This document shows positions 29,650-37,262 of a stretch of DNA of 64,000 nt, piece after piece. The notes below the pieces were generated by a model that was given only the letters and a program-made list of their open reading frames with translations, searched no databases and had not been told where the DNA came from. Source of the DNA: Minisyncoccota bacterium (GTDB lineage Bacteria > Patescibacteriota > Minisyncoccia > 2-02-FULL-40-12 > GWA2-44-9); assembly GCA_030583765.1 (NCBI GenBank), contig CP129474.1, positions 331,921-395,920 of the forward strand, read 5' to 3'. Every line of letters begins with the position of its first letter. Position 1 is the stretch's first letter. Position numbers and translations under genes: made by a program.

Positions 29650-31464
29650 ATGATGAAGCTTATTCGTTCAATTGCCCTCACATTCCTCGTCTTTTTGGCG
29701 CTCTCCGGACTCGCCTCTTTTTTCCTTGGGGGGCCAGAGCCTGAGCGCATTTCGCTCACTGAGTTGGCTCAGAAAATAAATGCAAAGGAGGTAAAAGAGG
29801 TGGTCATCGAATACGACCGGCTCGCTATTACCCTTGCCGATGATTCGCGCGCCGTCTCACAAAAAGAGCTCAACACTCCCCTTACCGAAACCCTTGTTGC
29901 GCTCGGTGCAAAACCAGAGCTTCTAAGCGGTATCTCGGTGCGAGTCCAGGATCCTAGCGGCGTAGGAACATGGCTTGGTGCAATTCTCCCCAGCCTGATC
30001 CCCATTCTCATTACCGTTGGCATTTTGTGGTATTTCTTCCGCCAAGCACAGCGTGGCTCTCTACAAACCAATAGCTTTACTAAAACAAAAGCGAAGCTCG
30101 CCGTAGGATCCCAAAACGGCAAAGCGATCACCTTCAAAGATGTTGCGGGGCTCATTGAAGCAAAAGAAGAGGTCAGCGAAGTGGTTGAGTTCCTCAAGGA
30201 GCCAGAGCGATTCCATAAATTAGGTGCGCGCATTCCTCGAGGAGTGCTCCTTGTGGGCACGCCGGGAACTGGTAAAACACTCCTCGCAAAAGCCGTTGCG
30301 AACGAGGCGGGCGTCCCCTTCTATTATGTCTCTGGCTCTGACTTCGTAGAGCTCTTTGTGGGCGTGGGCGCAAATCGCGTGCGCGACACCTTTGAAATCG
30401 CGAAAAAGACCGCCCCTTCTATTATCTTCATCGATGAAGTTGATGCTGTCGGTCGCCAGCGCGGCGCGGGACTTGGCGGCGGACACGATGAGCGCGAACA
30501 GACGCTCAACCAGATTCTTGTAGAGATGGATGGCTTTGAGGGCAAAGACGCGGTTGTGGTGATGGCAGCGACAAACCGCCCTGACATTCTTGACCCGGCC
30601 CTTCTCCGCCCAGGTCGCTTTGACCGTCGCGTCATCTTGGATGAACCCTCGCTCAATGATCGTGAAGCGATTCTCAAAATCCATTCGGAAGACAAGCCGC
30701 TCGCACAAGATGTCGATCTCCGCCTTGTCGCTGAGCGCACGCCTGGATTCTCGGGCGCAGACCTCGCTAATCTCATTAATGAAGCGGCTATTCTCGCCGC
30801 GCGATCACGACGCACCGAAATCCTTCAAATTGACGTCCTGCAGGCAATTGAAAAGGTTATGCTTGGCCCCGAACGCCGCTCCCACGCACTTTCGGTGCGC
30901 GAAAAAGAGATCACCGCATACCACGAAGCAGGCCACGCTCTTGTTGCATACTCACTCCCCCACACAGATCCCGTGCATAAAGTGTCTATTGTTTCGCGTG
31001 GACGGGCAGGCGGCTACACATTGAAACTCCCCTCTGAGGATAAGCACATGAAAACACGAGCAGAATTTGAATCAGAGCTCGCAGTGCTCATGGGTGGATA
31101 TACGGCAGAGCAAATAATTTTTGGCGACATCACCACGGGGGCCTCAAACGACCTTCGTGTTGCATCAAACATCGCGCGCCACATGGTAACGCAGTACGGC
31201 ATGTCCACGAAGATTGGCCCCGTCTCTTACCCAGAGCCAAGTGGTGAGATATTCTTAGGGAGAGATTTGGCGACGGGGCGCGAATATTCAGAAACGATCG
31301 CTGCACAGATTGATGACGAGGTGCGAACACTCCTCCTGCACGCGCAAAAAACAGCAAAGGAAACAATTACCAAGCACCGTGAGCAGTTGGAAAAAATTGC
31401 AAAGACGTTGATAGAAAAAGAAACGATAGAACAGCAGGAGTTCTACGCCCTCATGAAGGGCTAA
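29650..31464 (+). CDS. ftsH: ATP-dependent zinc metalloprotease FtsH
   Basis: N-terminal TMs, AAA+ Walker [12 protein letters not shown], and the zinc motif HEAGHAL. Confidence 0.9.
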
Positions 31465-31537
31465 CGGCCCGTAGCTCAGTTGGTAGAGCAGGCGTCTTAT
31501 ACACGCCGGGTCCCTGGTTCGAGTCCAGGCGGGCCGA
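31465..31537 (+). tRNA. tRNA-Ile with anticodon TAT (UAU, reads AUA). First pair C1-G72
   Basis: Hand-folded: acceptor CGGCCCG/CGGGCCG, D-arm GCTCAGTTGGTAGAGC, anticodon stem GGCGT/ACGCC, loop CTTATAC, T-arm CCTGGTTCGAGTCCAGG. Confidence 0.65.
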
Positions 31538-31585
31538 CTATATACTCAATACAATGCCCACTGCTGGGCGTTGTATAGAAAAGAA

Positions 31586-31620
31586 GACGCCCCTCGTGCA
31601 AAGCACGTGGGGCGTTTTTG
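31586..31620 (+). terminator. Intrinsic terminator after tRNA-Ile
   Basis: gacgcccc...ggggcgt followed by ttttt. Confidence 0.55.
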
Positions 31621-31635
31621 TCGTCGCCCGGTCCA

Positions 31636-32001
31636 CTAGGGGCCGGTCGGCGCAGAGGTCGGGGGCGTGGTGGGCGCTCCGCCACGGGGACGGCGCTGAC
31701 CGTTCTTGCGCCGCTCCTCCGCGCGACGCTTGAACTCGGCTTCCATGGTACGACGCACCGCTTCGTCCATGGACCCACTGTTGAGACGGGCCTCGAAGGC
31801 CTCTCTGAAGCGCTCGTCGAACCTCGCACTGAGGTCGCGCTCGAAGGCCTCGAAGCGATCAGCCTCCGTCGCCGAAGGCGGCACAGGAGAACTTCCCGCG
31901 GCCGGAGTGGCCGGCGGGGTGGCAGCGGCCACCGCCTCCTTCGGCCAGAACACCGCGGCCAGCAACAGAAGCGCAGCACACAACAAAAGGAATGGGGCCA
32001 T
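31636..32001 (-). CDS. Small secreted Pro/Ala-rich protein (121 aa), very high GC
   Basis: Signal peptide MAPFLLLCAALLLLAAVFW, then an acidic/basic helical region. Several overlapping antisense ORFs here are GC-driven artefacts. Confidence 0.4.
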   Translation of the reverse strand: MAPFLLLCAALLLLAAVFWPKEAVAAATPPATPAAGSSPVPPSATEADRFEAFERDLSARFDERFREAFEARLNSGSMDEAVRRTMEAEFKRRAEERRKNGQRRPRGGAPTTPPTSAPTGP

Positions 32002-32269
32002 CAGACACCTCTCTTTCGCTCAATAGTATACAATATAAAATGCATAGTTGTCAATCTCGCTTTTCAGCTCCAAAAAAGCGAAAGGCCTAGTGATACCGGT
32101 ATCACTAGGCCTTGGTGGCTTATCTTTTACAAGCGAGCAAGCTTGGATGTTTGAGCGCATCACGCTACGGCGTTTTAGAGATTATCCCCTCTCAAGCGCG
32201 CACGCTGTGGGGTACGAATCGGACGAAGTCGCTACTACCGAAGAACGACGTCGGCAGTTCTAGGGCGGT

Positions 32270-33526
32270 TCACGCGTTTACATCACGGAGCCACTCCTTA
32301 TTTACACGCTCGCGAGCGGCGACAAGTCGCGCCTCCACGCTCGCGATATCCTCACGAGACGACGCGGACGATGCGTCGGCGAGTAGTTGCTTGAGTTCAC
32401 TCGATGTTCCTGCATCTTTTCGTGCCTCAGCCTTCACAAAAAGATCGTAGATCTCTTCGTAGATCGGCTGGCGGTCTGCGTGTGGTAAGAGTGATGGCCC
32501 CGCTGGAGAGCTCCGCCACAACGACTCGGCAGCAAGAGATCCGGACGTCCTCAGAGCAACCTCATCGGCAGCGCGCTCCTCCAGTTTTTCAGCTTGAAGA
32601 ATGGGGCCGGTCGCCATCGTGAGGGCAACCGTTTCACCGCCAGCCCCTTCTTCAGGTACCTGCGGCTCAAGAGCTGCGATCGCAGCGAGTTCCTCGGGAG
32701 AGAGGTCGCGGATCGTCGAGGGCTCTAGTTGTTCGCTCTTGGTGGGAGCCACCTCCTCTTTCGGAAGTTCCGGCTCGCCCGACGGCGGAACCGAAAAGAT
32801 GGGAAGCTCTTCGGTTGTCGGCTTACGCACCTCGTCAGCGCGCAGACCTTCGTGAGTGAGCTTGCGCTCCCCTCCATCGGGCCCACGCGGACCTTGTGGA
32901 GGATCATCACCGCCCCTGCGGCCCGACCCCCGCATGAAGACAAGGGCGACGGCCATGCCGAGCATGATGGACAGAATTCCGACCACGAACCACATCGGGC
33001 GCGCGAGCTTTTCATCGCGATCCTCAGCAAGAGCTCGATTCTGTTCGAGTGCCTGCCGAGTGAGCGCGTTTGCGGTCAGCTCACGCTGTACCGCAGCGCG
33101 AGCTTCGGCTTCCAGTTGCGCAACGCGACGCTGTAGGGGCTCGACCTTCGCAGCAACCGCCGCGTCGATCTTCTCCTGCAGAAGCCTGTCGGCTTCCGCC
33201 TTGGCCGCCTCGGCACGCGCCTTGCGCACCGCAGCAGCCTTTTGAATCTGCTCGGGAGTGAGTCGCTTGCGCGGCTCCTGGCCCTTGAAAACTCGGGTCG
33301 GAACCCGTTCTGCGTTCAGGACACATAGGTCGTTTTCGGCGACCTGATAGTCCTTCGAGACTCCGGCGCAGTATCGCACCGAAGCAAGGACGTCCTGCAA
33401 CCCAGCGGGCCCCAGGGCATCCAACGGCGACTGGGCGCGCGCCACGGGGGCGGCGACCAGTGCCAACATCATCGCGACCATCGCGATGAGTCCGATCCTT
33501 CTCAACCTCATCATTGTCATTGTCAA
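32270..33526 (-). CDS. Secreted/membrane-anchored coiled-coil protein (418 aa), very high GC
   Basis: Signal peptide, long Ala/Glu/Arg-rich coiled coil, a central TM (MWFVVGILSIMLGMAVALVFM), and a Pro/Glu-rich C-terminal domain. Confidence 0.45.
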   Translation of the reverse strand: MTMTMMRLRRIGLIAMVAMMLALVAAPVARAQSPLDALGPAGLQDVLASVRYCAGVSKDYQVAENDLCVLNAERVPTRVFKGQEPRKRLTPEQIQKAAAVRKARAEAAKAEADRLLQEKIDAAVAAKVEPLQRRVAQLEAEARAAVQRELTANALTRQALEQNRALAEDRDEKLARPMWFVVGILSIMLGMAVALVFMRGSGRRGGDDPPQGPRGPDGGERKLTHEGLRADEVRKPTTEELPIFSVPPSGEPELPKEEVAPTKSEQLEPSTIRDLSPEELAAIAALEPQVPEEGAGGETVALTMATGPILQAEKLEERAADEVALRTSGSLAAESLWRSSPAGPSLLPHADRQPIYEEIYDLFVKAEARKDAGTSSELKQLLADASSASSREDIASVEARLVAARERVNKEWLRDVNA

Positions 33527-33625
33527 AGACCTCCTCTATCCCCTTAGGGAGACAGTCATATCTTTTAACATAAAAACAGACTGGCGTCAATGCCCTTCTC
33601 GTGCTATACTCTCTACATCTTTTTT

Positions 33626-33699
33626 GGGCGCTTAGCTCAGTTGGTTAGAGCGACTCGTTTACACCGAGTAGGCCGGGGGTTCGAATCCCTCAGCGCCCA
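33626..33699 (+). tRNA. tRNA-Val (anticodon TAC)
   Basis: Acceptor GGGCGCT/AGCGCCC, anticodon stem ACTCG/CGAGT, loop TTTACAC, T-arm GGGGGTTCGAATCCCTC. Confidence 0.85.
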
Positions 33700-33868
33700 C
33701 AACTTATGATGAAGCCGCCGTTTGGCGGGTTTATCACAAGAGGTTATATATGCTGAGGATTCGAACGCCGGAGCGATGTCCCGCAAGCTTGTGGGACCGC
33801 GAGGCGGTGCCTAGCCTGAGTCGAGCGACGGCGAGACGAAAGGCGAAGGAGAATCCCTCAGCGCACAC
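33700..33868 (+). repeat. tRNA-linked element copy A (about 169 nt), ending in a 14-18-nt direct repeat of the tRNA-Val 3' end
   Basis: gaatccctcagcgc (33851-33864) repeats tRNA-Val 33682-33695. Contains blocks GAACGCCGGAGC, GAGGCGGTG, AGCCTGAGTC and AGGCGAAGG shared with the element after tRNA-Arg. A 7-bp stem gctgagg/cctcagc (33762-33768 / 33854-33860) encloses the core. Confidence 0.6.
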
Positions 33869-33871
33869 CCC

Positions 33872-34564
33872 ATGACACCTCCGACTGTTCTTTTAGAAAC
33901 GCCCGATCTCCTCTTTATAGACAAGCCGTCTGGGCTTACCGTCCATAAAAAGACGGCGGAAGATCCCCAACACACTCTTGCGGATTGGGTTGTCGAACGC
34001 TATCCCGATATTCGAAATGTTGGCGAAGACCCACTTCGCCCAGGTATCGTCCACCGCCTCGATAAAGAAACGTCCGGCGTGATGGTTGTCGCAAAAACAA
34101 ACGCGGCATTCTTTTCATTAAAAAAACAGTTTCAAGACCACATTATTGAGAAAGAATATTGGGCCCTGGTACATGGGACTCCTCGCCCACCTCAGGGCAC
34201 CATAGATGCTCCCATTGGAGCCCTTGGAAACAAGCGCACTACACGCATCCATGGCAAGCGAACCCTTGTGGCCCACGAAGCCATCACTGATTATAGAACC
34301 CTCAAAACCTTTGATCGGTTTTCACTCATCGCCGCCCACCCTCGCACGGGGCGCACGCACCAAATTCGAGTGCACTGCAAGCACATGGGGACGCCAATCG
34401 CAGGAGACCTGCTCTATACCACATCTGCCCCAATCCCCCAGGGCCTCTCTCGCCTTTTTCTCCACGCCCACTCCCTTTCCGTTGCCGCCCCAGACAGTTC
34501 TCGTGTAAGCGTTCAGGCCCCCCTCCCAGGGGATTTACAAAACGTTCTTGATGCGTTACACTAG
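33872..34564 (+). CDS. RluA-family pseudouridine synthase
   Basis: HRLDKETSGVMVVAK catalytic Asp motif. Also FIDKPSGLTVH. Confidence 0.85.
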   Translation: MTPPTVLLETPDLLFIDKPSGLTVHKKTAEDPQHTLADWVVERYPDIRNVGEDPLRPGIVHRLDKETSGVMVVAKTNAAFFSLKKQFQDHIIEKEYWALVHGTPRPPQGTIDAPIGALGNKRTTRIHGKRTLVAHEAITDYRTLKTFDRFSLIAAHPRTGRTHQIRVHCKHMGTPIAGDLLYTTSAPIPQGLSRLFLHAHSLSVAAPDSSRVSVQAPLPGDLQNVLDALH

Positions 34565-35290: not shown

Positions 35291-35364
35291 GGGCGGTTAG
35301 CTCAGTTGGCTAGAGCGACTCATTGACGTTGAGTAGGTCATAGGTTCAAGTCCTATACCGCCCA
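35291..35364 (+). tRNA. tRNA-Val (anticodon GAC)
   Basis: Acceptor GGGCGGT/ACCGCCC, anticodon stem ACTCA/TGAGT, loop TTGACGT, T-arm ATAGGTTCAAGTCCTAT. Confidence 0.8.
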
Positions 35365-36006
35365 CTATCGCAGTATCTCTCTGATTCTCTGAATAGCGAG
35401 TGGCATATTACGCCTCCCTTGTCCCACTGGATAGTGGGTAGGGTATACGCAGTACGTAGCCCCACCGACGCTCAGGCGCTCGCACGTAGCGCCAGAATAG
35501 CCACTGACGCTAATATTCTTCTTTAATAACACCGAGGATACCTGATTGCCAAAGGTAATAATCTTTTTAGGATTAATCATCTCAATCTCTTGATACATTA
35601 GATCAAGGTAGTCTCTAAACACGCCGTTGTTCAGGGGCCTGGCGTCAAGCTGTGTGCACTTAGCGAGATTGGTTATAAAGATTGATTTTGATTCTATATC
35701 TTTGTACACAAGGTTTGTAAACCTTACATCCCATTGTTGTTTTAATTTAATTGCATCGTAGAGGCTTGTGTTAATTAGGTTAAGCTCATTAAAAATATCC
35801 CACACGTGCCTTGTCCCAACCCAGGGAGCTCTTAGCCCGCCCCAATCAGGGTGGCTTGAGATGTTCCTCCCCGTTGGGTTCATAAACACAAACATAGCCG
35901 CTGGGCTATCTATACATCCGGCGCCATAAATTGGACGGAGGAGAGGCGCTCCGTGCTTCTTCTGTAAAGAATCATACAACTTGTGGAGCTGAGTAACTTG
36001 TCGCAT
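35365..36006 (-). CDS. Uracil-DNA-glycosylase-superfamily-like protein (tentative), AT-rich gene
   Basis: GAGCIDSPAAMFVFMNPTG and ITNLAKC blocks loosely resemble UDG-fold motifs. Start assumed at an internal Met (MRQVTQL, ATG 36006); the track ORF extends to 36138. Stop abuts the tRNA-Val(GAC) 3' end. Confidence 0.35.
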   Translation of the reverse strand: MRQVTQLHKLYDSLQKKHGAPLLRPIYGAGCIDSPAAMFVFMNPTGRNISSHPDWGGLRAPWVGTRHVWDIFNELNLINTSLYDAIKLKQQWDVRFTNLVYKDIESKSIFITNLAKCTQLDARPLNNGVFRDYLDLMYQEIEMINPKKIITFGNQVSSVLLKKNISVSGYSGATCERLSVGGATYCVYPTHYPVGQGRRNMPLAIQRIREILR

Positions 36007-36042
36007 AATGCGCACTATACAGCATAGGGCTGCTACTAGACA

Positions 36043-36522
36043 ATGAAGATAGCCTGGAAAAAACCAAGGGACAGCCACATTATCTACGAAGCGCTCTCTG
36101 CGCTTGCTGATGGCAGGCTTAAGCTTATCGATAGCCATAAAGCAACTTGCGAATCTACGTCCCGAGGAAAATCTTATGAGATCGAGTTCGACCCCGCAAC
36201 CAGCTCCATTATGTCAAACGACAACATGGCGTACTATGCCAGAGAAGTGAGCTATCCGATGGCGGCAATGTTTCTAATAAAAGAGATCTATGCCTTTGAT
36301 AAAAATATCCTTCACTATTTTAAAGATATAAGATGGAAAGACATAAATCAGAAGAATGGTAATAATTATATGAAATCTGTCGACGAGGTATTAAGGGGCC
36401 TAGAGAAACAGGGCGTTGCTACTGGATATATTAAAAAGATGGCACAGAAGATTTATGACGACATCTCAAGCGCAACCTGGTATATGCTTGGAGAAAGAAG
36501 GGCGCCGCCAAATGTATATTAG
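36043..36522 (+). CDS. Hypothetical protein (159 aa), AT-rich
   Basis: ORF only. Followed by hairpin gagccgcccgcggctc. Confidence 0.35.
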   Translation: MKIAWKKPRDSHIIYEALSALADGRLKLIDSHKATCESTSRGKSYEIEFDPATSSIMSNDNMAYYAREVSYPMAAMFLIKEIYAFDKNILHYFKDIRWKDINQKNGNNYMKSVDEVLRGLEKQGVATGYIKKMAQKIYDDISSATWYMLGERRAPPNVY

Positions 36523-36629: not shown

Positions 36630-37262
36630 ATGAAAAAAGGCATCTCCGAAAAACATTCACGTACTCCCCTACAGCGAGTCGCGGGGTTCATCTACGAAAC
36701 CAGCATCCACAGCAGAACGCCCCGATCGGGGCTTTGGTTTTTAGGAACTGGCTCCCAGTCAGTCGCCGAACACCTCTTTCACACTGCCATGATCGCATAC
36801 GCGATGTGCTCCTTCTTTCCTAAGATCAACAAGGAGAAAGTGCTCCTTATGAGCTTAGTCCACGATATTGGCGAGGGTCGCACCTCTGATCTCAACTACG
36901 TCCACCAGCGCTACGGACGGCTCGCAGAAGCGCACGCGGTCAAAGATATTGCGAAAAGCGTCCCCTTCGGACAAGAAATTGAAGACCTCTATCACGAAGA
37001 GCAGGCGCGGATTACCCTCGAAGCTAAGGTGGTAAAAGATGCAGACCAGCTTGAATGGATGGCAACGTTGCGCGCAGAAGAAGTGAAGGGAAATAAAAAG
37101 GCGGGCACGTGGGCCCGTATTGCGCTCAAGCGCCTCAAAACGCCCGTTGGAAAGCAGCTTGGGAAACTCCTCCTCTCCACCAGCCCAGATGGCTGGTGGT
37201 TCGATGCTCATGACTCATGGTTTGTTGATCGCGATCCAAATGACCGCACGTGGAAGAAGTAG
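36630..37262 (+). CDS. HD-domain phosphohydrolase (YfbR-like 5'-deoxynucleotidase family)
   Basis: H...HD motif (AEHLFHTAMIAY...LVHDIGEGRTSD) and a downstream metal-binding Asp (DADQLE). Confidence 0.75.
   Translation: MKKGISEKHSRTPLQRVAGFIYETSIHSRTPRSGLWFLGTGSQSVAEHLFHTAMIAYAMCSFFPKINKEKVLLMSLVHDIGEGRTSDLNYVHQRYGRLAEAHAVKDIAKSVPFGQEIEDLYHEEQARITLEAKVVKDADQLEWMATLRAEEVKGNKKAGTWARIALKRLKTPVGKQLGKLLLSTSPDGWWFDAHDSWFVDRDPNDRTWKK

What the first reader, a model, noticed from the sequence alone, without database searches (positions are those of the whole stretch)
31620..33560. Very high-GC island between tRNA-Ile(UAU) and tRNA-Val(TAC) encoding two secreted/coiled-coil proteins
GC rises sharply to about 65 % for 1.9 kb, where the six-frame track is crowded with overlapping ORFs on both strands, a GC artefact. 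The two most plausible genes (121 aa and 418 aa) both have signal peptides and low-complexity Ala/Glu/Arg/Pro-rich regions. The island is flanked by tRNAs on both sides, and the right-hand tRNA carries the att-like element. Compositionally it resembles DNA from a high-GC donor such as an actinobacterial host.
Basis: partly seen in the sequence, partly recalled or inferred. Interest (0 to 1): 0.5.

Follow-up and report, generated by a model that had tools for sequence, protein, structure and literature searches.

The report
Clade-specific GC-rich orphan membrane-protein genes
A 2-kb GC-rich stretch between two tRNA genes of an uncultured Paceibacterota bacterium carries two fast-evolving membrane-protein genes found only in its closest relatives; no donor could be identified and the high GC is being maintained rather than decaying, so it does not look like recently imported actinobacterial DNA.

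Summary
The GC rise is real but smaller than stated. The region 31620-33560 is 61.3% GC against 52.4% for the window, which is the highest 1.9-kb stretch (z=2.9). It is two blocks of 62-69% GC separated by a 49% spacer.

Both proposed genes are real. Each is conserved in the same place in three related genomes, and each has its own ribosome-binding site and terminator. The small gene also has a near-consensus promoter.

More distant relatives have tRNA-Ile(UAU) and a tRNA-Val almost touching, so the block is an insertion specific to one narrow clade.

The idea of a high-GC or actinobacterial donor is not supported:
- The only homologues among 1.84 billion cluster representatives are clade members.
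- The GC-normalised tetranucleotide signature is native-like.
- About two thirds of the large gene's GC excess comes from its Ala/Arg/Pro/Gly-rich amino-acid composition.
- Substitution patterns show no decay toward host GC.

The att-like repeat brackets a separate 150-nt insert on the rluA side of tRNA-Val. That insert is missing from relatives that still carry the island.

The large protein has a signal peptide, a Cys-pair domain, a coiled coil, a transmembrane anchor, a disordered tail and a C-terminal helical bundle. Its function is unknown.

Unexpectedly, the gene's first ~450 nt are better conserved than ftsH, are very GC3-rich, and are predicted to fold unusually strongly (z about -6). 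The gene also shows recombination between lineages.

The parts
31465..31538 (+). tRNA-Ile(UAU), left boundary of the island. It directly follows ftsH (29650-31464).
   Evidence: ARAGORN and Rfam at 67 bits. The same tRNA follows ftsH in all relatives examined.
31587..31616 (.). GC-rich hairpin with T/A runs on both sides. It is probably a bidirectional terminator serving tRNA-Ile and the small gene.
   Evidence: Terminator scan found a + strand site at 31592-31612. The segment is about 82% identical to H41 although the adjacent sequence is poorly conserved. Bidirectional use is my inference.
31636..32001 (-). Small gene of 121 aa: N-terminal hydrophobic helix, Pro/Ala/Thr linker, variable charged helical segment, and a basic RRxRGG plus Pro/Thr tail ending in PTGP. 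GC is 68.9% and GC3 is 0.77.
   Evidence: ORF list. Orthologous ORFs lie at the same position in H41 (104 aa; 38% identity, E=8e-16) and in H51. Between the window and H41, dN/dS is 0.49. A Shine-Dalgarno AGAGAGGTG lies at 32006-32014. No homologue and no self-match in the 5.8-billion-protein collection. No Pfam, NCBIfam or PHROGs family.
32025..32054 (-). Sigma-70-like promoter of the small gene (TTGACA, 18 nt, TATACT).
   Evidence: 11 of 12 consensus matches; this was the only promoter-like site found in 31300-34000. TTGACA is conserved in H41 and H51.
32072..32113 (-). Intrinsic terminator of the large gene: a perfect 16+16 palindrome (32082-32113) followed by a T-run.
   Evidence: H41 carries several two-sided changes that keep the hairpin paired (GGCCTAGTGATACC/GGTATCACTAGGCC becomes AGCCTAGTAATGTC/GACATTACTAGGCT).
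32114..32269 (-). Conserved non-coding stretch between the large gene's stop codon and its terminator. It may be a 3'UTR element or a 3'UTR-derived small RNA.
   Evidence: About 75-82% identical to H41, similar to ftsH, while parts of the neighbouring coding sequence fall to 30-50%. Indels of 1, 2, 5 and 24 nt among four sequences argue against coding. Fold z=-3.2 including the terminator. No Rfam match. Covariation is inconclusive.
32270..33520 (-). Large gene of 416 aa (418 aa if counted from TTG 33526). Layout: signal peptide 1-32, two-Cys domain about 33-90, long helix 91-199 (coiled coil running into a TM helix at about 178-198), disordered Pro/Glu-rich cytoplasmic linker with a conserved motif (PPQGPRGP..GGER.LT.E.LRADEVRKPTTEE), and a C-terminal helical bundle 349-417.
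   Evidence: Exact match to NCBI MAG protein QY311_01935, Candidatus Paceibacterota. Orthologues in L087 (90% identity), H41 (72%) and H51. dN/dS is 0.32. AlphaFold2 mean pLDDT is 58.5, with the helix and the C-terminal bundle at 75-87. Hydropathy. No significant Pfam, NCBIfam, PHROGs, PADLOC, PDB or Foldseek match.
33130..33625 (-). Hyper-conserved, GC3-rich, strongly folding 5' block: upstream region, 5'UTR and codons 1-130 of the large gene.
   Evidence: The coding part is 92-95% and the upstream region 79-92% nt identical to H41, against about 82% for ftsH. pS is 0.17-0.28 against 0.50-0.67 in flanking genes. GC3 is 0.76, falling to 0.56 at the 3' end. Sense-strand fold z is -6.2 in the window, -5.3 in H41 and -4.5 in H51. 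It gives the strongest non-tRNA signal in 28.5-35.2 kb. Five compensatory pairs against 1.8 expected from shuffles. Paired third codon positions vary less than unpaired ones (p=0.03).
33626..33700 (+). tRNA-Val(UAC), right boundary of the island.
   Evidence: ARAGORN and Rfam at 73.8 bits. In outgroups a tRNA-Val(GAC) occupies this position and the UAC gene lies after tRNA-Leu(GAG).
33701..33868 (+). Separate insert of 150 nt plus an 18-nt repeat, between tRNA-Val and rluA. It is bounded by a direct repeat of the tRNA 3' end and contains an inverted copy of the T-arm. It is not part of the island.
   Evidence: Repeats D4 and I9. Absent from H41 and H51, where tRNA-Val lies close to rluA (15 bp in H41); present in L087. 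Fold of -79.6 kcal/mol, z=-5.6. No tRNA, Rfam or viral match.

Best explanation
The island is a two-gene accessory module restricted to one narrow Paceibacterota clade. It was inserted at the junction between tRNA-Ile(UAU) and a tRNA-Val in the clade's ancestor and has been inherited at that spot since.

It encodes two separately transcribed, rapidly evolving, single-pass cell-envelope proteins with no detectable relatives elsewhere. The large one most likely spans the membrane. A small disulfide-capable head and a coiled-coil stalk of about 90 residues would lie outside. A disordered tail carrying a conserved linear motif and a helical bundle would lie inside. That layout suggests an envelope scaffold or adaptor (inferred; function untested).

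The high GC is not a fading mark of a foreign donor. About two thirds of it comes from the Ala/Arg/Pro/Gly/Glu-rich amino-acid composition. In the large gene the remainder is a locally maintained excess of G/C at synonymous sites, concentrated in its first 130 codons; the small gene is GC3-rich throughout. I attribute this excess to selection on a strongly structured mRNA 5' region, to recombination-associated GC-biased gene conversion, or to both.
For: Shown:
- The same two genes lie between the same tRNAs, with the same GC excess, in H41 (64.8% and 68.3% against 53.8%) and in H51. A fourth strain (L087) carries the large gene.
- Flanking FtsH is 94% and RluA 89% identical to H41, against 72% for the large and 38% for the small island protein.
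- Outgroups with FtsH 57-65% identical lack the block. Ile and Val tRNAs are 4-180 bp apart in L008, L009, L010 and L098, and L096 has an arginase-like gene after tRNA-Ile.
- A full HMMER profile scan of 1.84 billion representatives found only clade members.
- GC expected from amino-acid composition with native codon usage is 0.584. Observed is 0.618 and the genome value is 0.524. The GC3 excess of +0.10 is 1.3 sd, and native genes reach 0.69-0.70.
- The tetranucleotide signature is native-like.
- dN/dS of 0.32 and 0.49 shows that both are genes under selection.
- The ratio of GC-to-AT over AT-to-GC changes is 1.25-1.34 in the island against 1.14-1.79 in flanking genes. The implied equilibrium GC3 is 0.65 against 0.50-0.53.
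- GC3 falls along the large gene from 0.76 to 0.56.
- The 5' block is conserved and strongly folding.
- The phylogeny inside the gene is mosaic. Residues about 130-199 support (window,H41 | L087,H51) by 13 sites to 5, while the rest of the gene supports (window,L087 | H41,H51) by 111 to 6.
- Promoter, Shine-Dalgarno sites and covarying terminator.

From the literature: a positive association between gene GC content and recombination across bacteria (Lassalle et al. 2015, PMC4450053).
Against: - The source of the 2 kb of DNA is unknown. Outgroups have no room for it between the tRNAs, so it came from somewhere, and an old transfer cannot be excluded.
- The small gene's GC3 (0.77) is near the top of the window's range, and I did not test it for maintenance.
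- The nearest informative outgroup is distant (FtsH 65%), and the contig of the 70% relative ends just after tRNA-Ile, so the insertion is poorly dated.
- The substitution analysis uses three-taxon parsimony at partly saturated sites.
- The covariation evidence rests on four closely related sequences and on a structure derived from them.
- Protein topology and function are inferred from sequence and from a low-confidence AlphaFold model (pTM 0.24).
Confidence: 0.55

Rival explanations
1. The island is old horizontally acquired DNA from a high-GC donor. It would have been integrated at the tRNA cluster, and the integration machinery later lost.
For: The block is absent from outgroups, where the tRNAs are adjacent. 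It has the highest GC in the window. The small gene's GC3 is 0.77. tRNA clusters here are insertion hot spots: L010 has a 1-kb insert between duplicated tRNA-Val genes, and the window has a UDG-family gene next to tRNA-Val(GAC) that is missing in H41.
Against: No homologue exists outside the clade among 1.84 billion representatives, and phage DNA matches only the tRNA-Val gene itself. No integrase is present and no direct repeats flank the island. The GC-normalised tetranucleotide signature is native. There is no amelioration signal, and the implied equilibrium GC3 is 0.65. GC stays equally high in three lineages separated by pS of 0.5-0.67 at flanking synonymous sites. Paceibacterota are not known to have actinobacterial hosts; that association is known for Saccharibacteria (my own background knowledge).
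Confidence: 0.17
2. The two genes arose inside the lineage, either de novo or by duplication and runaway divergence of native sequence. Low-complexity, disordered proteins lose detectable homology quickly.
For: The proteins are orphans. Divergence is extremely fast: the small protein is 38% identical between genomes whose FtsH is 94% identical. Much of the sequence is disordered or low-complexity. The oligonucleotide signature is native.
Against: Outgroups have only 4-180 bp between the tRNAs, so there was no local raw material. No paralogue was found in the 64-kb window or in any fetched locus. The N-terminal domain and coiled coil are well conserved and look like an established fold, not a young one.
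Confidence: 0.15
3. The low synonymous divergence of the 5' block comes purely from recent homologous exchange between lineages (introgression of a favoured allele), with no RNA-level function.
For: There is clear mosaicism elsewhere in the same gene. The block adjoins a conserved tRNA that could anchor recombination. Unpaired third codon positions are also less variable there (48%) than in the rest of the gene (56-70%).
Against: pS is reduced in all three pairwise comparisons among roughly equidistant genomes, not in one pair only. Fold z-scores of -4.5 to -7 occur in three orthologues. Compensatory changes and a paired-versus-unpaired difference are seen.
Confidence: 0.3
4. The ORFs are GC artefacts and the region is non-coding.
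For: Fourteen overlapping ORFs of at least 60 aa. The 121-aa ORF is not among the called proteins of the large collection.
Against: Both reading frames are preserved across lineages, and indels in the large gene's codon alignment fall in multiples of three. dN/dS is below 1 only in these frames. Shine-Dalgarno sites, the small gene's promoter and the terminators are conserved.
Confidence: 0.03

Closest known systems
tRNA-associated genomic islands and integrative elements
   Same: A lineage-specific block with atypical GC sits between tRNA genes. The neighbouring tRNAs in this cluster are demonstrable insertion hot spots in related genomes.
   Different: There is no integrase or other mobility gene, and no att-type direct repeats flank the block. 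It is present in every sampled clade member. The oligonucleotide signature is native-like and there is no amelioration signal.
Taxonomically restricted (orphan) genes for disordered or coiled-coil envelope proteins
   Same: There are no homologues outside a narrow clade. Evolution is fast (dN/dS 0.3-0.5), the composition is low-complexity Ala/Glu/Arg/Pro-rich, and the proteins have membrane anchors. Alleles are mosaic, and one population carries a nonsense variant.
   Different: The N-terminal third is exceptionally conserved even at synonymous sites, which is not typical of fast-evolving orphans.
TIGR04211 'SH3_and_anchor' family (NCBIfam: SH3 domain-containing protein)
   Same: The profile aligns to the coiled coil plus transmembrane anchor (residues 84-204 against profile positions 61-191 of 198). 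From memory of that family, the order signal peptide, small N-terminal domain, coiled coil, membrane anchor also matches; I did not test this.
   Different: The score is 17.7 bits against a cut-off of 65 (E=0.002), and the match covers only the coiled coil and TM helix. No SH3 domain was detected. The protein here has an extra cytoplasmic tail of about 220 residues.
GC-biased gene conversion in recombining bacterial genes (Lassalle et al. 2015, PMC4450053)
   Same: GC3 is locally raised in a gene with direct evidence of intragenic recombination. The substitution pattern implies a higher local equilibrium GC.
   Different: The effect is concentrated in about 400 nt that also fold unusually strongly. 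The recombination breakpoints I detected lie downstream of the most GC3-rich block. I could not measure conversion bias.

Membership tests
tRNA-targeted integrative genomic island | Integrase or recombinase gene within or beside the island | tested here: not met
   The island holds only two genes, and neither matches any Pfam, NCBIfam, PHROGs or PADLOC family. The neighbours are ftsH and rluA.
tRNA-targeted integrative genomic island | Direct repeats (attL/attR) derived from the tRNA 3' end that bracket the island | tested here: not met
   The only tRNA-end repeat (33683-33700 / 33851-33868) brackets a 150-nt insert on the rluA side. That insert is absent in H41 and H51, which carry the island.
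tRNA-targeted integrative genomic island | Patchy presence or absence among close relatives | tested here: not met
   Present in all four sampled clade members. Absent only from relatives with FtsH identity of 65% or lower.
Recent horizontal transfer from a high-GC (actinobacterial) donor | Best protein hits in the donor lineage | tested here: not met
   Only clade members were found in the 5.8-billion and 1.84-billion protein searches. The sole phage DNA match to the region is the tRNA-Val gene itself.
Recent horizontal transfer from a high-GC (actinobacterial) donor | Oligonucleotide signature foreign to the host | tested here: not met
   The GC-normalised tetranucleotide correlation is 0.686 against a mean of 0.725 (sd 0.095), ranking 34 of 125 from the bottom.
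Recent horizontal transfer from a high-GC (actinobacterial) donor | Ongoing amelioration, seen as an excess of GC-to-AT substitutions relative to native genes | tested here: not met
   The ratio of GC-to-AT over AT-to-GC changes is 1.25-1.34 in the island against 1.14-1.79 in flanking genes. The implied equilibrium GC3 is 0.65. This rests on three-taxon parsimony, so it is approximate.
TIGR04211 SH3_and_anchor | Score above the curated cut-off, with an SH3 domain present | tested here: not met
   17.7 bits against a cut-off of 65, aligned only over the coiled coil and TM helix. Pfam finds no SH3 domain.
Taxonomically restricted protein-coding genes | No homologues outside a narrow clade, together with evidence of selection on the reading frame | tested here: met
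   (restriction). (dN/dS of 0.32 and 0.49; in the 5' block of the large gene only the annotated frame behaves as coding).
Rho-independent terminator (32072-32113) | GC-rich hairpin followed by a U-run, with the hairpin kept through compensatory change | tested here: met
Cis-acting structured RNA in the 5'UTR and early coding region | Folding energy beyond composition, plus covariation that supports specific helices | tested here: inconclusive
   z-scores of -4.5 to -7.0 in three orthologues. Five compensatory pairs against 1.8 expected (2 of 500 shuffles reach that), but from only four sequences and a structure derived from them. No Rfam family matches.

The most novel reading that the evidence does not exclude
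The GC 'island' may be partly the footprint of an undescribed RNA element of about 300-450 nt. This element would overlap the promoter-proximal region and the first 130 codons of an orphan envelope-protein gene in a candidate-phyla-radiation bacterium. It would constrain synonymous sites more tightly than in ftsH, raise local GC3 to about 0.76, and sequester the start-codon region in a helix, perhaps to control translation or mRNA fate. A second conserved element may lie in the 3'UTR. If this is right, a compositional signal that looks like horizontal transfer actually reports selection at the RNA level, possibly reinforced by recombination and GC-biased gene conversion.
Probability: 0.3. Interest if true: 0.55.

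Novelty: new member of a known kind. Interest (0 to 1): 0.33.

Why it matters
This case is a caution for genome scans. A GC spike next to tRNAs was read as DNA imported from a host. Here the spike is mostly explained by amino-acid composition plus a locally maintained synonymous bias, in genes that the lineage has kept for a long time.

It also defines a small new family of envelope-spanning proteins specific to a groundwater- and wastewater-type Paceibacterota clade. Such proteins are candidates for the cell-surface biology of these uncultured, probably symbiotic bacteria.

If the conserved, strongly folding 5' block proves functional, it would be a new coding-region RNA element in this poorly studied group of bacteria.

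Tried and rejected
- Family and structure searches for both proteins gave nothing significant: Pfam, NCBIfam, PHROGs, PADLOC, PDB sequence search, and AlphaFold2 plus Foldseek against PDB. The Foldseek hits were generic helical bundles with E above 1.
- A distant DNA search of the island against phage genomes matched only the tRNA-Val gene.
- An exact-match scan of viral contigs for the 150-nt insert found nothing.
- ARAGORN with introns allowed and lowered thresholds found no credible tRNA in the insert. The insert has no second copy in the window.
- I tested whether the conserved 5' block hides an overlapping gene. The 169-aa same-strand ORF at 33081-33590 spans it, but it has a stop in L087 and pN/pS of 1.63. 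All other frames have stops or no sign of selection. Rejected.
- I tested whether GC3-rich native genes are a highly expressed class, which would explain the island by codon adaptation. They are a mixed set (IF3, an RNase T-like exonuclease, DoxX, unknowns), so the result is not informative.
- RNAalifold on the conserved 3' non-coding stretch, in both orientations, had too little variation to support a structure.
- No paralogues of either protein exist in the window or in about 170 fetched loci.
- I did not build a covariance model of the 5' block. Four near-identical sequences would give little more than a sequence profile, and the full length would exceed the calibration limit.
Full report
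**Source and setting**

The large ORF is an exact match to a hypothetical protein (QY311_01935) of a Candidatus Paceibacterota metagenome-assembled genome on a 615-kb contig. The window is 52.4% GC. The finding lies between ftsH plus tRNA-Ile(UAU) on the left and tRNA-Val(UAC), rluA and rplS (ribosomal protein L19) on the right.

**The observation**

- The region 31620-33560 is 61.3% GC. That is the highest 1.9-kb stretch in the window (z=2.9), but it is not about 65% throughout.
- It consists of two GC-rich coding blocks. The 121-aa ORF is 68.9% GC and the 418-aa ORF is 61.8%.
- A 268-bp spacer of 48.9% GC separates the two blocks.
- Fourteen ORFs of at least 60 aa crowd both strands.

**Are the two ORFs genes?**

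Yes. Three related genomes carry orthologues in the same place and orientation:
- H41, a groundwater MAG (loci L001, L007, L094).
- H51 (loci L091, L093).
- A strain known only from short contigs (L087), which covers the large gene only.

Further support:
- In these frames dN/dS is 0.32 for the large gene and 0.49 for the small one. Flanking genes give 0.015-0.085.
- In the 5' block of the large gene, the other five frames have stops or pN/pS of 0.6-1.6.
- The large gene starts at ATG 33520. GGAGG lies 9 nt upstream and the ATG is conserved in all four sequences.
- The large gene ends in a perfect 32-nt palindrome plus T-run (32072-32113). Its stem shows several compensatory changes in H41.
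- The small gene has its own near-consensus promoter (TTGACA, 18 nt, TATACT at 32025-32054) and a Shine-Dalgarno site.

**Is it an insertion?**

Yes, at clade level. All four clade members have it (FtsH 94% identical where it could be measured). The next relatives do not:
- L096 (FtsH 65% identical) has an arginase-like gene after tRNA-Ile.
- L008, L009, L010 and L098 (57-59% identical) have tRNA-Ile(UAU) followed within 4-180 bp by tRNA-Val(GAC). The order then continues with rluA, rplS, tRNA-Leu(GAG) and tRNA-Val(UAC).

The two tRNA-Val isoacceptors have swapped places in the window's clade.

**Is it foreign high-GC DNA?**

The evidence points the other way.
- *Homology.* The large protein has three hits among 5.8 billion proteins: itself, plus clade members at 90% and 67% identity. 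A full HMMER profile scan of 1.84 billion representatives adds only one more clade fragment. The small protein has no hit at all. Because these proteins diverge very quickly (38% identity for the small one between genomes whose FtsH is 94% identical), absence of hits is weak evidence in either direction.
- *Amino-acid composition.* Recoding the large protein with the window's own codon usage predicts 58.4% GC. So about two thirds of its excess over 52.4% is amino-acid composition: Ala 16%, Glu 11%, Arg 9%, Pro 7%.
- *GC3.* At 0.647, the large gene's GC3 is +0.10 over expectation, about 1.3 sd. Native genes in the window reach 0.69-0.70.
- *Oligonucleotide signature.* The GC-normalised tetranucleotide signature correlates with the rest of the window as well as an average segment does.
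- *Direction of change.* I polarised substitutions among the three roughly equidistant genomes. The island's ratio of GC-to-AT over AT-to-GC changes (1.25-1.34) matches that of flanking genes (1.14-1.79). The implied equilibrium GC3 is 0.65 in the island against 0.50-0.53 in the flanks. The GC is therefore being maintained, not decaying. The expected parsimony bias would make this estimate conservative.
- *Mobility features.* There is no integrase and there are no flanking repeats.

**The 'att-like element'**

An 18-nt copy of the tRNA-Val 3' end (17 of 18 identical) lies 168 nt downstream of the original. It bounds a 150-nt insert between tRNA-Val and rluA.
- The insert also holds an inverted copy of the T-arm, and it folds strongly (z=-5.6).
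- It is present in the window and in L087, but absent from H41 and H51, where tRNA-Val lies close to rluA (15 bp in H41).
- It is therefore a younger, separate event on the other side of the tRNA and says nothing about how the island arrived.
- It contains no tRNA, matches no Rfam family, and has no viral exact match.

**What the proteins look like**

*Large protein:*

| Residues | Feature |
|---|---|
| 1-32 | Signal peptide |
| about 33-90 | Conserved domain with two invariant cysteines |
| 91-199 | One long helix: coiled coil running into a TM helix at about 178-198 |
| 200-343 | Disordered Pro/Glu-rich segment containing a strikingly conserved linear motif |
| 349-417 | Confident helical bundle |

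Applying the positive-inside rule (my inference), the N-terminal half faces outward and the tail is cytoplasmic.

*Small protein:* an N-terminal hydrophobic helix without a basic n-region, a Pro/Ala/Thr linker, a poorly conserved middle, and a conserved basic, Pro-rich tail ending in PTGP.

No family or fold match gives a function. The nearest match is TIGR04211 (SH3_and_anchor), far below its cut-off.

**Unexpected features**

*A hyper-conserved 5' block.* The first ~450 nt of the large gene's transcription unit (33130-33625) stand out in several ways.
- The coding part is 92-95% identical to H41 and the upstream region 79-92%. ftsH is about 82%.
- pS is 0.17-0.28 in all three pairwise comparisons, against 0.50-0.67 in flanking genes.
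- This is where the synonymous GC excess sits. GC3 is 0.76 there and falls to 0.56 at the 3' end.
- The sense strand folds far better than dinucleotide shuffles: z=-6.2 in the window, -5.3 in H41 and -4.5 in H51. It gives the strongest non-tRNA signal across 6.7 kb, at -7.0.
- A consensus structure has five compensatory pairs against 1.8 expected from shuffles.
- Third codon positions that are paired in the window-only structure vary half as often as unpaired ones (p=0.03). The rest of the gene shows no such effect.
- With only four sequences this evidence is suggestive, not conclusive.

*Mosaic phylogeny.* Informative sites in residues about 130-199 group window with H41 and L087 with H51, by 13 sites to 5. 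The rest of the gene groups window with L087, by 111 to 6. This shows recombination between lineages. Bacterial genes with evidence of recombination tend to be GC-richer (PMC4450053).

*A conserved 3' stretch.* The 156 nt between the stop codon and the terminator are conserved and non-coding.

*A nonsense variant.* One H51 assembly carries a TAG in the coiled coil, while a replicate assembly has GAG.

**Verdict**

The region is a real, clade-specific insertion that encodes two orphan envelope proteins. The donor hypothesis and the role proposed for the att-like repeat are not supported. The GC signal is mostly amino-acid composition plus a locally maintained synonymous bias, which is tied to a conserved, strongly folding, recombining 5' block. 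As a kind of feature it is ordinary. The 5' block is the one part that deserves follow-up.

Noticed in passing
window 33701-33868: An insert of 150 nt plus an 18-nt repeat lies between tRNA-Val(UAC) and rluA. It is bounded by a 17/18 direct repeat of the tRNA 3' end and holds an inverted T-arm copy. It folds at -79.6 kcal/mol (z=-5.6) and begins with a terminator-like hairpin. It is absent in H41 and H51 and present in L087. It looks like a relic of a tRNA-targeted insertion or of a fold-back duplication.
   Followed up: partly
window 32114-32269 (minus strand): A conserved non-coding stretch lies between the large gene's stop codon and its terminator. Its indels are not multiples of three, and it has no Rfam match. 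It may be a 3'UTR-derived small RNA or a regulatory element.
   Followed up: partly
window 33626-33700 and 35291-35365; L009, L010, L098: tRNA-Val(UAC) and tRNA-Val(GAC) occupy swapped positions in this clade relative to outgroups. Outgroups have Ile-Val(GAC)...Leu-Val(UAC), and this clade has Ile-island-Val(UAC)...Leu-Val(GAC). The anticodon arms show these are true isoacceptors, not point-mutated anticodons.
   Followed up: partly
window 35365-36138 (minus strand): A UDG-superfamily gene of low GC (45.9%) sits directly beside tRNA-Val(GAC). It is absent from the H41 locus, while the next gene (36630-37262) is 93% identical. This strain-specific insertion is a better candidate for recent transfer than the GC-rich island.
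   Followed up: partly
L010 10678-11831: A 1-kb insert of 31-37% GC carries two small ORFs and lies between two copies of tRNA-Val(GAC). This is a classic duplicated-target signature at the same tRNA cluster in a distant relative.
   Followed up: no
L091 ~2000 / L092 versus L093: An in-frame TAG replaces a Glu codon in the coiled coil of the large gene in one H51 assembly and in the matching Logan contig. A replicate H51 assembly has GAG. This is either a nonsense polymorphism or a low-coverage error.
   Followed up: partly
window 31465-31538 and all relatives' loci: A tRNA-Ile with anticodon UAU follows ftsH, directly or after one inserted ORF, in nearly every Paceibacterota-like relative examined (L097, at 59% FtsH identity, shows none on its short contig). 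From my own background knowledge this anticodon is uncommon in bacteria, which usually read AUA with a lysidine-modified CAU tRNA. I did not check whether tilS is present.
   Followed up: no
window 37567-38229; L001 6487-7158; L010 9923-10585: Similar helix-turn-helix (HTH_38-like) genes of about 220 aa lie beside tRNA genes at different positions in different genomes. They may be a mobile gene family associated with tRNA clusters.
   Followed up: no
window 32270-32300: In the window and L087 the large protein has a 9-residue C-terminal extension (KEWLRDVNA). It was created by loss of the TAA stop that H41 and H51 use.
   Followed up: yes
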